DNA from: Escherichia coli
GTDB lineage: Bacteria; Pseudomonadota; Gammaproteobacteria; Enterobacterales; Enterobacteriaceae
Reading direction: 5' to 3' (one strand)
Assembly (NCBI RefSeq): GCF_044324875.1
Contig: NZ_CP172185.1
DNA length: 64,000 bases
The notes under the pieces were generated by a model. It searched no databases. It was not told the origin of the DNA and was given only the letters and a program-made list of their open reading frames with translations. This document shows, piece after piece, positions 145 to 50,380 of the stretch. Positions within the stretch are counted from its first letter, which is position 1. Each line of letters starts with the position of its first letter. The position numbers and the translations under genes were made by a program.

Positions 145-1500
145 TTATTTCAAGTCGGGTAAGTCGTTGTATAAGCCCTGTTTAATTCCCGCTAATGGAA
201 TAAGGTTATTCACCGCAGCGGCATAATTTACGGCGGCGACCCAGCCATCATAATTGGCATTTATTTCAGCCGATTGCGCCTGAAAGACATCTTGCTCGAC
301 GGTTAATAGATCATTCAGACTGCGTTTGCCCAATTTATATTCATTTTGGTACACATCTCGCGTTTTGTGCGCACTTTCGGATTGTGCTAAACCGGCTTCT
401 TCGCGACCCCGTGCGCCTGTCCAGTTGGCATATGCCACAGACGCTCGTTGCAGCACATCCAGTTTTGCCTGTTCGACCTGCGAGGCAGAGATTTTTTGTT
501 GCCCTTCGGCCTGTTGCACCTGGGCAGAAACCGCGCCGCCCTGATACAGCGGCGCGTTAACGTTCAGTTGTAACTGATCATCCCAATACGAGCGGTCGCT
601 GGTCTGGTAGCGCGTTTTACCCCCCTGAATACTGAGCGTTGGCCAGTATTGCGCTTTCGTTTTTTCCACGCCGTACTGTGCTGACTGGCGTAAGTTTTCT
701 GCCGCCAGCACCAGCGGGATGGACTGGTAATCAATATTTTTCAGCGATACCGACTGCTCGGCTAATTCAGCAGGTGGCGCGGCTATCGCCTCCGGCTGTA
801 CGCCAGTGAGCACCGCCAGTTGCGCTTTGGCGCTTGCCATCTGCGCCTGATATTGCTCCAGCGTTGAGCGCATTCCGGCAATGCGCGTCTGGGCCTGTAA
901 TTCATCCGACGATGAGTTCAGGCCAGCGTTAGCGCGCAATGCCGCCATGTTGTAGACGTTTTCCAGCGAGTGAATATTGCGTTGAGCCGCATCGCACAAA
1001 GCCTGATAACGACTGACTTCCATATAGGCAGTCGCCGTTTTCTCTGCAACATCGGTTAAGGTTGCCATCAATTTAAAGCGGTAGCTGTCACGGGCGGCAG
1101 TTTGCAGATTGATATCGTTGTTAGTTTTACCAAAGTCATACACCAGCTGTGTCAGGGTTATGCCATACGAAACGTTGTTATCAAGCCTGCCGCTGGAGTC
1201 CGTTTGTCGGGACGGCCCCGCGTTGCCGGTTAATCCAACGTGCGGATACCAGGCACTTTTGGCTTCATCAATTTGCGCTTCGCCAATACCTATCTGCGCC
1301 GCCTGTTGAGTGACGTCGGGATTTCGCGCAAAGGCGCGTAATATACTTTCCTGTAAAGATAATTGGGCAACTGGCGTTACCGCTGGGGCATTCGCCCATT
1401 GTGGCAGCGGTGCAGCAATTGCAGCTTCTCCCATCACCATAAAACTTATAAAAAAAATAAGTCCATTATTTTTACGGTTTTTAAACTGGAATCGCGCCAT
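145..1500 (-). CDS. TolC-family outer membrane channel protein (efflux / type I secretion outer membrane component), 451 aa with N-terminal signal peptide
   Basis: Translation has a hydrophobic signal-like N-terminus followed by a long region with TolC/OMF-type composition (Q/A/L-rich helical repeats, Y/N/G-rich strands). Not a gene I recall at this position in K-12. Confidence 0.75.
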   Translation of the reverse strand: MARFQFKNRKNNGLIFFISFMVMGEAAIAAPLPQWANAPAVTPVAQLSLQESILRAFARNPDVTQQAAQIGIGEAQIDEAKSAWYPHVGLTGNAGPSRQTDSSGRLDNNVSYGITLTQLVYDFGKTNNDINLQTAARDSYRFKLMATLTDVAEKTATAYMEVSRYQALCDAAQRNIHSLENVYNMAALRANAGLNSSSDELQAQTRIAGMRSTLEQYQAQMASAKAQLAVLTGVQPEAIAAPPAELAEQSVSLKNIDYQSIPLVLAAENLRQSAQYGVEKTKAQYWPTLSIQGGKTRYQTSDRSYWDDQLQLNVNAPLYQGGAVSAQVQQAEGQQKISASQVEQAKLDVLQRASVAYANWTGARGREEAGLAQSESAHKTRDVYQNEYKLGKRSLNDLLTVEQDVFQAQSAEINANYDGWVAAVNYAAAVNNLIPLAGIKQGLYNDLPDLK

Positions 1501-4255: not shown

Positions 4256-4275
4256 CTTGACCTTCCCCTTGCTGG
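4256..4275. repeat. attL core (direct repeat copy 1)
   Basis: 20/20 identity with 39269..39288; lies 70 bp downstream of the int stop. Confidence 0.8.
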
Positions 4276-4344: not shown

Positions 4345-5388
4345 CTACCTCCCTTTTTCCTCAAAATGTGGACACTCAATGGACATATCACATAGCGGAT
4401 TATGCATCACAGCATCGCTTAAATAATCCGGCGAAAAATGCGCATAAGTCATTGTCTGAGATATATCTGCATGACCGAGGATTTTTTGAAGAGAAATAAT
4501 ATTCCCCCCATTCATCATAAAATGGGTGGCAAATGTATGCCTCAATACATGAACCGCTTGACCGTCCGGCAAATTAGGCTTAGCCACCTTCAGTTTCAGC
4601 CTAAACCATTTATAACTCACCCGAAATAAACGCCCCTCCTTGCGATGTTTTACAAGCCTAACAACATCATCAGAAACAGGAACAACCCGACGCTTATTAT
4701 TTTTTGTGAAATTAAATACAACCTTATTACCGATAATATGTTCCCCCATTAGCTGATATGCTTCATTCCAGCGACAGCCTGTAGACAACAAAAGGACAGC
4801 CATTCGGTAATAATCTCCCGAACCCTTGCAGATAGAAAGAAACGCACCAATCTCTTCATGATTAAGATAAGCCATCTCTGGGGTTTTTTCCTTGAGGCGA
4901 GGAAGCGACAATACAGGGTTACTACCGTGATATTCACCAATCTCTGCCATAGCCTTTAACGCAGCGCTAAACGCAAAAAGATCATGGTTGATTGTAGATG
5001 CCTTAACCCCTTGATCGAGACGGCGCGATCTATATTCAGCAACCATGCGTTCATCAATCTCGTACATCATAGGGTCACCCATATCAAGACAAATACACTG
5101 GAGGTTATTCAGTCTACGATTCGCGTAATCCTTGTGACGACCTATCAGTAACCACCACGTCGCAATGAAATCGCTTAAATATCGCTTGTCCAGAAGATTA
5201 CCGAAAACATCAACAGAAGGGCGATCAGCAAGAACTTCGCGTTCAAATGCTACAGCCAGATTTTTTTTCTCAAACTTCCGACGAATGCGCCTTCCCTTAC
5301 TTCCGTCGGGTCGAATGTCCACAAAATAGCGACCATCTTCGAGCTTCTTAATTGACATAAGAAGACCCTCCAACAGTCCATTCTCCAT
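4345..5388 (-). CDS. int: Tyrosine integrase, P2 Int family
   Basis: 347 aa; N-terminus MSIKKLEDGRYFVDIRPDG...RRIRRKFEKK and C-terminal HxLRHTFATHF...GHADISQTMTYAHF catalytic region resemble P2 Int as recalled. Confidence 0.92.
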   Translation of the reverse strand: MENGLLEGLLMSIKKLEDGRYFVDIRPDGSKGRRIRRKFEKKNLAVAFEREVLADRPSVDVFGNLLDKRYLSDFIATWWLLIGRHKDYANRRLNNLQCICLDMGDPMMYEIDERMVAEYRSRRLDQGVKASTINHDLFAFSAALKAMAEIGEYHGSNPVLSLPRLKEKTPEMAYLNHEEIGAFLSICKGSGDYYRMAVLLLSTGCRWNEAYQLMGEHIIGNKVVFNFTKNNKRRVVPVSDDVVRLVKHRKEGRLFRVSYKWFRLKLKVAKPNLPDGQAVHVLRHTFATHFMMNGGNIISLQKILGHADISQTMTYAHFSPDYLSDAVMHNPLCDMSIECPHFEEKGR

Positions 5389-39268: not shown

Positions 39269-39288
39269 CTTGACCTTCCCCTTGCTGG
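39269..39288. repeat. attR core (direct repeat copy 2)
   Basis: Identical to 4256..4275. Confidence 0.8.
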
Positions 39289-39300
39289 AAGGTTTAACCT
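39270..39300 (+). promoter_or_regulatory. copA promoter with CueR-type dyad (TTGACC -35 followed by CCTTCC-N7-GGAAGG)
   Basis: ccttccccttgctggaagg dyad read directly about 50 bp upstream of the copA ATG; matches the MerR-family copA operator as recalled. Confidence 0.75.
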
Positions 39301-39340
39301 TTATCACAGCCAGTCAAAACTGTCTTAAAAGGAGTGTTTT

Positions 39341-41845
39341 ATGTCACAAACTATCGACCTGACCCTGGACGGCCTGTCCTGCGGTCACTGCGTTAAACGC
39401 GTGAAAGAAAGTCTCGAACAGCGCCCGGATGTTGAGCAGGCGGATGTGTCTGTCACTGAAGCGCACGTTACCGGGACTGCCAGTGCAGAACAGCTGATCG
39501 AAACCATCAAACAAGCGGGTTATGACGCATCTGTAAGCCACCCAAAGGCTAAACCGCTGGCGGAGTCATCAATCCCGTCGGAAGCACTGACAGCGGTTTC
39601 TGAGGCGCTTCCGGCAGCGACCGCCGATGACGATGACAGCCAGCAGTTGCTGCTGAGCGGCATGAGCTGCGCCAGCTGTGTCACCCGCGTACAAAATGCG
39701 TTGCAAAGCGTACCGGGCGTCACTCAGGCACGGGTAAACCTGGCGGAGCGTACTGCGCTGGTGATGGGCAGTGCCTCCCCACAAGATTTAGTGCAGGCGG
39801 TGGAAAAAGCGGGCTACGGCGCGGAAGCGATTGAAGATGACGCTAAACGCCGCGAGCGCCAGCAGGAAACCGCCGTCGCTACGATGAAGCGCTTCCGCTG
39901 GCAGGCAATTGTCGCACTGGCGGTGGGTATCCCGGTGATGGTCTGGGGGATGATCGGCGATAACATGATGGTCACCGCTGACAACCGCAGCTTGTGGTTA
40001 GTTATCGGCCTGATAACCCTGGCAGTGATGGTTTTCGCCGGCGGCCATTTTTACCGTAGTGCATGGAAAAGCCTGCTGAACGGTGCAGCGACGATGGATA
40101 CGCTGGTGGCGCTGGGTACTGGCGTGGCGTGGCTCTATTCGATGAGCGTCAACCTGTGGCCGCAGTGGTTCCCGATGGAAGCGCGACATCTTTATTACGA
40201 AGCCAGCGCGATGATTATCGGTCTGATCAATCTCGGTCATATGCTGGAAGCGCGCGCACGTCAGCGTTCTTCAAAGGCGCTGGAGAAATTACTCGATTTA
40301 ACCCCACCGACGGCGCGCCTGGTCACCGACGAAGGTGAAAAAAGCGTGCCGCTGGCGGAAGTGCAGCCAGGTATGTTGCTGCGCCTGACGACCGGCGATC
40401 GCGTGCCGGTAGATGGCGAGATTACCCAGGGCGAAGCATGGCTGGATGAAGCGATGCTGACGGGCGAACCAATCCCGCAGCAAAAAGGCGAAGGCGATAG
40501 CGTCCATGCCGGGACAGTGGTACAGGACGGCAGTGTGCTGTTTCGTGCCAGTGCGGTCGGCAGCCATACTACGCTGTCACGAATCATTCGCATGGTGCGC
40601 CAGGCCCAGAGCAGCAAGCCTGAAATCGGCCAACTGGCGGATAAAATCTCCGCTGTGTTTGTGCCGGTGGTGGTAGTCATTGCGCTGATCAGTGCGGCAA
40701 TCTGGTATTTCTTTGGTCCGGCACCGCAGATTGTCTATACCCTGGTGATTGCCACCACGGTGCTGATTATCGCCTGTCCGTGTGCGCTGGGACTGGCGAC
40801 GCCGATGTCGATTATTTCGGGCGTCGGGCGGGCGGCTGAGTTTGGTGTGCTGGTGCGGGACGCCGACGCGCTGCAACGCGCCAGTACGCTCGACACCGTG
40901 GTGTTCGATAAAACCGGGACGCTGACCGAAGGGAAGCCGCAGGTTGTCGCAGTAAAAACATTTGCTGATGTTGATGAAGCGCAAGCATTGCGTCTGGCGG
41001 CGGCGCTGGAGCAAGGTTCCAGCCACCCGCTGGCACGGGCGATCCTCGATAAAGCAGGTGATATGCAGCTACCGCAGGTCAACGGTTTCCGCACATTGCG
41101 CGGGCTGGGTGTGAGCGGTGAAGCTGAAGGTCATGCGGTATTGCTGGGCAATCAGGCGCTGTTAAATGACCAGCAAGTTGATACTAAAGCGATTGAGGCA
41201 GATATTTCAGCTCAGGCATCGCAAGGTGCAACGCCTGTGCTGCTGGCGGTTGACGGGAAAGCGGTAGCCCTGCTGGCTGTACGCGATCCGTTGCGTAGTG
41301 ATAGCGTGGCGGCGCTGCAACGCCTGCATAAAGCGGGATATCGTCTGGTGATGTTGACCGGGGATAACCCAACCACCGCCAATGCGATCGCCAAAGAAGC
41401 AGGGATTGATGAGGTGATAGCCGGCGTGCTGCCGGACGGTAAAGCCGAAGCGATCAAACGTCTTCAAAGTGAAGGACGTCAGGTGGCAATGGTGGGCGAC
41501 GGCATTAACGATGCGCCAGCGCTGGCTCAGGCGGATGTCGGTATTGCGATGGGTGGCGGCAGTGATGTTGCCATTGAAACCGCGGCGATTACCCTGATGC
41601 GCCATAGCCTGATGGGTGTTGCAGATGCGCTCGCGATTTCCCGCGCAACGCTGCGCAATATGAAGCAGAACCTGCTCGGTGCGTTTATCTACAACAGCAT
41701 TGGTATTCCGGTCGCCGCCGGTATTTTGTGGCCGTTCACTGGAACACTGCTTAACCCGGTGGTTGCCGGAGCGGCAATGGCGCTCTCGTCGATTACCGTA
41801 GTGAGTAACGCCAACCGGTTACTGCGGTTTAAACCGAAAGAGTGA
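39341..41845 (+). CDS. copA: Copper-exporting P-type ATPase
   Basis: 834 aa; two N-terminal GxxCxxC metal-binding motifs, CPC, DKTGT and GDGINDAP motifs. Confidence 0.97.
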
Positions 41846-48924: not shown

Positions 48925-50229
48925 TTAACGATCCCAGTAAGACTCTTCCAGGCTGTCTTCACGCTCCGGCAAGCCGCGCGTTAAACGAGGTGAATGCTGG
49001 TTCAGTACCTGATAGCTCACACGGTTAGCATATTTACACACCTGCGCTAACGATGAATAAGTTAACCAGGTGAATTTATGTTTGCTGGAGTTTGGTACGT
49101 TGCTACGGTGGTAGCTGTTGGCGGTAATATCATGCAGCAACGCTGCCAATGCGCCATCCCCTGCTCCGTTAGTGTTCATGATTTTTTCCGGCCCGCCCAT
49201 GTACGGCGCAATGTGCGAATAGACACGCAGCGGATTCTGGCAATCCTTGTGGCGCATGGCGCGGCTAAACTCATACTGGTTAAATTCCGCTATAGCGCCC
49301 GGCAGCAGTGGATGCTGGGTTTTACGTTTCGCTTCGTCTTCAGTAAAGCCCGCCATATACAAGCCGATTGGCCCGGCGGTGCACAGCACCAGATCAACCC
49401 AGTCCAGCGCCTTGTCAGATGCCAACAACGGATCGCTTTCTCCGGTCAACGCTTCGGCCTCATCTTCGTTCATCGCAAGGATAGAGACGTGATCTTTGAG
49501 GAATTGCTGCCACCACTGCGGATTCTCGGCAATGACAAACTTGGTGCCCAGCGTCAGCACCACCGGTACGTTATATTTCTTCGCGTACTCAATGGCTTTC
49601 ATGGTTGCTTCCGGCATGGGTTCACCCGGCTTGCAACGCACCAGATAAGAAGTGAGAACCAGTGCCGAGGCTCCGGCAATCACATCTTCCGGAATACTTT
49701 CAGCCCGCAGCTGGTTCATGTGGCCAGGGCTGATAGCAAAGGTACGTTCCCCGGACTCGCCAATCAGCGTAAAGCAACGACCTATCGGGCCATCCACGCC
49801 TTGTAGATAGTTAAGATCGGTACGGCTGGAGGTGTTACACAGGTAACGATAGGCATAGCTGCCAATTTCAATATTGCTGCACATGACGCCCAGCAGCACC
49901 TAACGGTCGTCCGCGAGCACCGAGTAGTTGTGCATGGTGTTACCAATAGTGCCACCCGCAAACTGATGGGTAATCAGGTTTTTCTGTTTTAGTTCCTGAT
50001 AAAGCGCTTCGGCTACGTCATCCTCAATCACCAGTGAATGCCCGGCGCTTAATCCATAACGCTCAATGAATTCATCATCCACTTTCGCTTCAATATCGAC
50101 CAGCGTTTGATCGATACCCACTACCCAGGCGGCGCTGGTTTCGTTTTCTGGCTGGAACTGCTGAAGCAGCGGATCGCGTGCATTTACAGGGAAGTAATGT
50201 TTGGATTTACGTTTACCGGGAAATTTCAT
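48925..50229 (-). pseudogene. gsk: Inosine-guanosine kinase gene interrupted by an in-frame TAG at codon 110 (minus-strand stop = plus 49900..49902)
   Basis: Two adjacent same-frame ORFs (109 aa + 324 aa) separated by a single TAG; combined length 434 codons equals full-length Gsk. Confidence 0.8.
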
Positions 50230-50380
50230 GGTTGTTTTTACGGGTGGTTAACTGAGCGGCGAATGTTAACACAATCTGACGGGAGCGCGCGAGACGCAGC
50301 CAGTTTCAATATCAGCAGGCGGGATCGCATTTTCATGGCAGTGGTTCCTTACAATGACGTAATTTGAAAGGAGTTTTTGC

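What the first reader, a model, noticed from the sequence alone, without database searches (positions are those of the whole stretch)
49897..49902. In-frame amber codon splits gsk
A single TAG (minus strand; plus 49900..49902) separates two same-frame ORFs whose combined length (109 + 1 + 324) equals full-length inosine-guanosine kinase, and a GTG follows immediately. Either a genuine nonsense mutation (loss of purine nucleoside salvage unless suppressed) or a base-call error.
Basis: seen in the sequence. Interest (0 to 1): 0.5.

Follow-up and report, generated by a model that had tools for sequence, protein, structure and literature searches.

The report
Real amber mutation inactivating gsk
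This E. coli strain has a genuine one-base change that puts a stop codon a quarter of the way into its inosine-guanosine kinase gene, which is an ordinary knockout of a dispensable salvage enzyme of a sort scattered through public E. coli genomes.

Summary
Codon 110 is TAG (plus 49900-49902) where intact alleles have TCG (Ser110), so this is a C>A change at gsk nt 329. It leaves a 109-aa and a 324-aa in-frame piece, which match positions 1-109 and 111-434 of the 434-position Gsk profile.

It is not an assembly artefact. A separately assembled SRA contig is identical to the window over 11,330 bp, stop included. The other 22 core genes I compared in the window are intact.

None of 5,320 complete RefSeq E. 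coli genomes carries the TAG. The same TAG does occur in two other E. coli backgrounds, 1.4-1.7% divergent, whose gsk differs from intact alleles by that one base. That makes at least three independent origins.

This recurrence is not special. Truncated Gsk products ending before ten other one-step nonsense sites are all in the collection (2-146 contigs each). The one I inspected, Q89*, also recurs on at least two backgrounds.

Best reading: a recent, lineage-specific null allele. The expected phenotype is mild, because DeoD with Gpt/Hpt still salvages nucleosides. I found no suppressor tRNA in the window, no convincing restart signal and no templated mutation mechanism. Interest is low.

The parts
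48925..50229 (-). gsk (inosine/guanosine kinase) locus, full 434-codon frame interrupted at codon 110; effectively a pseudogene or null allele
   Evidence: synteny aes-gsk-ybaL
49903..50229 (-). N-terminal fragment, codons 1-109 (includes the AGGT glycine pair); the expected 109-aa truncated product
   Evidence: NF011655 positions 1-109, 204 bits, below the 367 cut-off; the exact product is seen in public assemblies
49900..49902 (-). Amber codon TAG replacing Ser110 TCG; the mutated base is plus-strand 49901 (gsk nt 329, C>A)
   Evidence: 0 of 5,320 complete E. coli genomes match the 71-mer exactly
49897..49899 (-). GTG (Val111) directly after the stop; a possible but unsupported reinitiation codon
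   Evidence: anti-SD duplex -3.2 kcal/mol, within the background of -2.46 +/- 2.28
49882..49884 (-). ATG (Met116), the start that gene callers pick for the 319-aa downstream ORF; a second possible restart
   Evidence: anti-SD duplex -3.7 kcal/mol
48925..49896 (-). C-terminal part, codons 112-434 plus the stop; holds the PfkB domain hits and the NTNGAGD motif; untranslated unless restart or readthrough occurs
   Evidence: NTNGAGD is read directly from the translation

Best explanation
A real, recent, lineage-specific point mutation (TCG>TAG, Ser110amber; C>A at gsk nt 329) has turned gsk into a null allele in this E. coli lineage. Ribosomes stop after residue 109, releasing a fragment without the C-terminal three quarters of the PfkB kinase, which carries the NTNGAGD motif and the Pfam PfkB hits. 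Any restart product from GTG111 or ATG116 would lack the N-terminal quarter with the conserved glycine pair. Either piece alone should therefore be inactive (inferred). Because gsk converges on ybaL, no downstream gene suffers polarity (gene order shown; the absence of polarity is inferred from it). The expected phenotype is loss of direct phosphorylation of inosine and guanosine only. Salvage continues through DeoD plus Gpt/Hpt, so the allele is near-neutral in a purine prototroph (established knowledge, not tested here). Such gsk nonsense alleles are ordinary standing variation in E. coli.
For: The stop and its frame are, and the profile coverage 1-109 / 111-434 is. An independent assembly is identical over 11,330 bp with the same TAG. 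22 of 22 other compared core genes in the window are full length with no stops. The five other differences from the closest allele (E. coli 042) are all at third codon positions, so there is no decay and the event is recent. The TAG is absent from 5,320 complete E. coli genomes. It is present in two other backgrounds whose gsk is 1 nt away from intact RefSeq alleles. As a baseline, products truncated before 10 other one-step nonsense sites are all present with 2-146 contigs, while 6 of the 9 tested lengths that do not precede a one-step nonsense codon are absent. Q89* is a genuine stop on at least 2 backgrounds and Y102* is a genuine stop in one assembly. A K-12 derivative has a frameshifted gsk in RefSeq. 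The alternative salvage route is described in PMC10311079 and PMC13328217.
Against: No reads were inspected directly. L006 may come from the same isolate as the window, which would make it an independent assembly but not an independent culture. Loss of activity is inferred from domain content and was not measured. Suppressor tRNAs elsewhere in the genome cannot be excluded. Three origins of the identical SNP, against none found for the same-context Ser103 TCG, leaves a small possibility of a hotspot or of selection.
Confidence: 0.85

Rival explanations
1. Sequencing or assembly error: the true codon is TCG and gsk is intact.
For: It is a single-base difference. No complete RefSeq E. coli genome has it.
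Against: A Logan contig assembled from raw reads, present in 2 runs, is 100% identical over 11,330 bp including the TAG. The window shows no other broken core gene in 22 checked. Genuinely noisy assemblies of this locus show many frameshifts. The same SNP is seen in unrelated assemblies, including a 5.2-Mb NCBI contig.
Confidence: 0.03
2. The gene is still functional. Either the amber codon is read through by a suppressor tRNA, or termination-reinitiation at the adjacent GTG111 produces two fragments that assemble into an active split kinase.
For: TAG is immediately followed by an in-frame GTG. The downstream frame is undamaged. Restart after early amber codons is known for lacI (from my own knowledge, not checked here).
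Against: There is no tRNA gene in the window. Anti-SD pairing upstream of GTG111 (-3.2) and ATG116 (-3.7 kcal/mol) is within the background of internal gsk windows, -2.46 +/- 2.28. The intact downstream frame is equally expected for a recent mutation. The stop is not conserved in relatives. The break falls between the N-terminal glycine-pair region and the rest of one PfkB fold, and nothing indicates that the fragments complement each other.
Confidence: 0.05
3. Ser110amber is a mutational hotspot or a positively selected convergent loss-of-function allele, not neutral drift.
For: The identical C>A has at least 3 independent origins on backgrounds 1.4-1.7% apart. One of these is a clone seen in many runs. 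The same-context Ser103 TCG site showed no genuine stop among the places shown. Unregulated Gsk activity is harmful during starvation (PMC10311079), so loss could sometimes be favoured.
Against: Other nonsense sites have similar or higher contig counts (Q89* 146, Q173* 79, against 58 for S110*). Q89* also recurs on at least 2 backgrounds. I found no quasi-palindrome or ectopic template that would create the change. 3 versus 0 is not statistically meaningful. My search was ascertained on this exact product.
Confidence: 0.07

Closest known systems
E. coli inosine/guanosine kinase Gsk (NCBIfam NF011655; PDB 6VWO/6VWP; PfkB family)
   Same: 434-codon frame. The stop-repaired protein scores 914.9 bits and matches 6VWO at E=1e-301. 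It has the same aes-gsk-ybaL neighbourhood.
   Different: Codon 110 is TAG instead of TCG, so the full-length enzyme is not encoded.
Other naturally occurring gsk null alleles in E. coli (Q89*, Y102*, Q173*, and the frameshift in K-12 derivative ER1709)
   Same: A single-event disruption of an otherwise intact gsk in isolated lineages.
   Different: A different codon. S110* arises by a C>A transversion, whereas the CAG>TAG sites arise by C>T transitions.
Classical laboratory amber mutants with restart polypeptides (e.g. early lacI ambers)
   Same: An amber codon early in the gene with an in-frame GTG or ATG just downstream.
   Different: There is no evidence here of restart or suppression, and no SD signal above background. 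The resemblance is recalled from the literature and was not tested.

Membership tests
Inosine/guanosine kinase Gsk (NF011655) | Whole-protein score above the curated cut-off (367 bits) | tested here: met
   The stop-repaired 434-aa sequence scores 914.9 bits over 1-434. The N fragment alone scores 204.2 (below the cut-off) and the C fragment 688.6.
Inosine/guanosine kinase Gsk (NF011655) | Uninterrupted reading frame encoding the full enzyme | tested here: not met
   TAG at codon 110.
Inosine/guanosine kinase Gsk (NF011655) | Conserved chromosomal context aes-gsk-ybaL | tested here: met
Inosine/guanosine kinase Gsk (NF011655) | Kinase activity on inosine and guanosine | not testable with these tools
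   Needs an enzyme assay or a growth test.
Programmed or suppressed stop codon (functional readthrough gene) | The stop codon is conserved among orthologues | tested here: not met
   0 of 5,320 complete E. coli genomes have it. In two other lineages it is the only difference from intact alleles.
Programmed or suppressed stop codon (functional readthrough gene) | A cognate suppressor tRNA (CUA anticodon) in the genome | not testable with these tools
   There are no tRNA genes in the 64-kb window, and the rest of the genome is not available.
Split gene with translational restart | A ribosome-binding signal or coupling context at the restart codon | tested here: inconclusive
   The stop and GTG are adjacent, but anti-SD pairing of -3.2 to -3.7 kcal/mol is within background.
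Sequencing or assembly artefact | The variant is absent from independent data on the same lineage | tested here: not met
   L006 (SRR31072984, 2 runs) carries the TAG and is 100% identical over 11,330 bp.

The most novel reading that the evidence does not exclude
Ser110amber could be a recurrently selected allele rather than drift. It arose at least three times independently. It might be favoured where uncontrolled guanosine or inosine phosphorylation is harmful, or it might yield a two-piece Gsk by reinitiation at the adjacent GTG.
Probability: 0.06. Interest if true: 0.35.

Novelty: already known. Interest (0 to 1): 0.12.

Why it matters
It matters mainly for annotation. gsk in this genome should be flagged as a pseudogene with an internal stop, not called as two genes, and the strain should be expected to lack Gsk activity. 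That is relevant only in backgrounds where DeoD or Gpt/Hpt salvage is also missing, or when nucleoside kinase activity is exploited. The wider survey shows that identical nonsense SNPs recur in several backgrounds once very large numbers of assemblies are searched. Recurrence alone should therefore not be read as selection.

Tried and rejected
(1) I first suspected Shigella-style reductive evolution. I rejected it because all 22 other compared core genes are intact.

(2) Templated mutation from a quasi-palindrome or an ectopic donor. No 8-13-mer containing the mutant base has a direct or inverted match near gsk or anywhere in the window.

(3) Spread of the TAG by recombination. The flanking SNPs lie 22-62 bp from the stop in L003 and 29-118 bp in L005. 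In both lineages the rest of gsk equals intact RefSeq alleles. Independent mutation is therefore simpler.

(4) Metagenome contigs that end at gsk nt 327-329 (L007-L012) as evidence of within-sample C/A polymorphism. This is unresolved. Control lengths show that contig ends cluster at several sites, so I did not use it.

(5) An exact 38-mer scan of one-genome-per-species GTDB contigs found nothing.

(6) A literature search found no paper describing this allele.

(7) The 319-aa downstream product is inflated as a marker, because many carriers are frameshift-ridden noisy assemblies rather than TAG carriers.

Full report
OBSERVATION. The minus strand between 50229 and 48925 carries a 434-codon frame interrupted once. 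Codon 110 is TAG (T=49902, A=49901, G=49900) and is followed directly by GTG (49899-49897). The ORF listing gives a 109-aa ORF (49900..50229, -) and a 324-aa ORF (48925..49899, -) in the same frame. NCBIfam NF011655, the 434-position inosine/guanosine kinase profile, aligns the first piece to positions 1-109 and the second to 111-434. The sequence with the stop replaced by Ser scores 914.9 bits against a cut-off of 367. That repaired protein matches the solved E. coli Gsk structure 6VWO/6VWP at E=1e-301. E. coli 042 and a K-12 derivative have TCG (Ser) at this codon. The event is therefore a single C>A transversion at gsk nt 329 with no indel.

REAL OR ARTEFACT. Four results point to a real mutation.
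- The exact 109-aa product is on record in public assemblies. One Logan contig (L006, SRR31072984, present in two runs) is 100% identical to the window over 11,330 bp, TAG included.
- I translated 23 core genes from the nearest complete genome (CH4796) and compared them with the window. 22 are full length or reach the window edge without stops, and only gsk carries a stop.
- Truly noisy assemblies of this locus show many frameshifted neighbours, which this window does not.
- The same SNP is present in unrelated assemblies, including a 5.2-Mb NCBI contig.
I did not inspect reads directly, and L006 may derive from the same isolate as the window. Even so, a base-call or assembly error is very unlikely.

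HOW WIDESPREAD. The window is E. coli, but it is no more than 99.0% identical to any of the 5,426 complete RefSeq genomes over window 39001-64000. Its gsk is closest to the E. coli 042 group, with 6 differences. Five of those are at third codon positions, so there is no sign of decay after the stop. None of the 5,320 complete genomes that match the 71-mer around the site matches it exactly; the best have one mismatch.

The identical TAG does occur on two other backgrounds.
- L003 and L004 are 100% identical to each other over 11,351 bp and so represent one clone. It includes GCA_045619065.1 and several SRA runs.
- L005 is a third background.
These differ from the window by 1.4-1.7% over about 11 kb and from each other by 1.6%. 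Their gsk alleles are 99.9% identical, one mismatch in 1,305, to intact alleles in many complete genomes. SNPs lie within 22-62 bp of the stop. Independent mutation is therefore more economical than recombination, giving at least three origins.

IS THE RECURRENCE SPECIAL? I tested this with controls.
- Of ten N-terminal truncations of neighbouring lengths (102-108 and 110-112 aa), six are absent from the 15-billion-protein collection. Only the 102-aa length precedes a one-step nonsense codon, so six of the nine non-adjacent lengths are absent.
- Ten truncations ending just before other codons one step from a stop (Q41, E69, Q78, Q82, Q89, C117, Y125, Y129, Q143, Q173) are all present, with 2-146 contigs each. 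S110* has 58 contigs.
- Q89* (CAG>TAG) is a genuine stop in three shown places on at least two backgrounds, 23-24 nt apart within gsk.
- Y102* is genuine in one assembly.
- Q173* shares its longest contig (5,159,704 bp) with a matching 252-aa downstream product.
- A K-12 derivative has a frameshifted gsk in RefSeq.
- Ser103, which has the same TCGGTGCT context, showed only contig-end truncations, but 3 versus 0 is not significant.
- No quasi-palindromic or ectopic template could generate the change.
I conclude that gsk nonsense alleles are ordinary standing variation, and that identical recurrences are expected at this data scale.

MECHANISM AND CONSEQUENCE. Shown here:
- Translation from the native ATG must stop after residue 109.
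- The C-terminal 324 codons hold both Pfam PfkB hits (residues 138-293 and 347-414) and the NTNGAGD motif (translation).
- The N fragment holds the AGGT glycine pair.
Inferred: neither fragment alone is an active kinase.

Restart at GTG111 or ATG116 is possible in principle. Anti-Shine-Dalgarno pairing there is -3.2 and -3.7 kcal/mol, which is within the background for internal gsk windows (-2.46 +/- 2.28). The window has no tRNA gene, so suppression cannot be assessed.

gsk and ybaL are convergent, so no downstream gene should be affected by polarity.

Gsk is one of two routes for inosine and guanosine salvage. The other runs through DeoD purine nucleoside phosphorylase and then Gpt/Hpt (PMC10311079; PMC13328217). 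What is lost is direct nucleoside phosphorylation, and I expect little phenotype in a prototroph.

COMPARISON AND NOVELTY. This is a nonsense-mutated copy of a well-known, structurally solved enzyme gene. It is one of many such alleles in public data. It is not a conserved or programmed stop, because the membership test for that reading failed. I found no paper describing the allele, but nothing about it falls outside known kinds. The practical value is for annotation: call it as one pseudogene, not two genes.

VERDICT. The 'genuine nonsense mutation' reading is supported and the 'base-call error' reading is not. The phenotype claim is overstated. Interest is 0.12. The most novel reading that remains open is convergent selection or a functional split kinase, at about 6% probability.

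Noticed in passing
window 4256-39288: A 35-kb P2-family prophage lies between glsA and copA. It encodes an integrase (4345-5388), a replication nickase, portal, large terminase, major head protein, tail fibre, tape measure, sheath and a further tail protein. It is absent from the nearest complete genome, CH4796. It is bounded by a 20-bp direct repeat, CTTGACCTTCCCCTTGCTGG, at 4256-4275 and 39269-39288.
   Followed up: partly
window 39269-39343: The prophage att core lies inside the copA promoter. The right-hand copy is followed by AAGGT, which restores the dyad ACCTTCC-N7-GGAAGGT just upstream of copA. From memory this is the CueR operator, which I did not test. The left-hand copy lacks the second half-site. 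The -35-like TTGACC is kept, but the DNA upstream of it is now phage DNA.
   Followed up: partly
window 39001-64000: No complete RefSeq E. coli genome (5,426 searched) is more than 99.0% identical over this 25-kb core stretch, so the strain belongs to a lineage poorly represented among finished genomes.
   Followed up: no
L007-L012 (gsk nt 327-329): Six metagenome or SRA contigs end exactly at gsk nt 327-329, next to the amber site. This could reflect an assembly-graph branch from C/A or third-position polymorphism within samples. Contig ends also cluster at nt 303-308. It remains unresolved.
   Followed up: partly
L002 (E. coli ER1709, NZ_CP030240.1 2641875-2643178): RefSeq annotates gsk of this K-12-derived strain as frameshifted, which is another independent gsk pseudogene.
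   Followed up: no
window 50230-50250: The native gsk start codon has essentially no Shine-Dalgarno pairing in the 20 nt upstream (+0.6 kcal/mol with the 16S tail).
   Followed up: no
L001 2936-4284; L003 17303-17761: Mobile elements differ between strains around this locus. E. coli 042 has an IS3-family IS1397 copy just downstream of gsk. The L003 clone has a Y1-transposase gene between ybaK and ybaP. Both are absent from the window.
   Followed up: no
window 145-1500: The window begins with a TolC-family outer-membrane protein gene. In CH4796 this gene sits next to a 20.8-kb siiEA-type giant adhesin gene and its type I secretion genes. The adhesin lies beyond the window edge.
   Followed up: no
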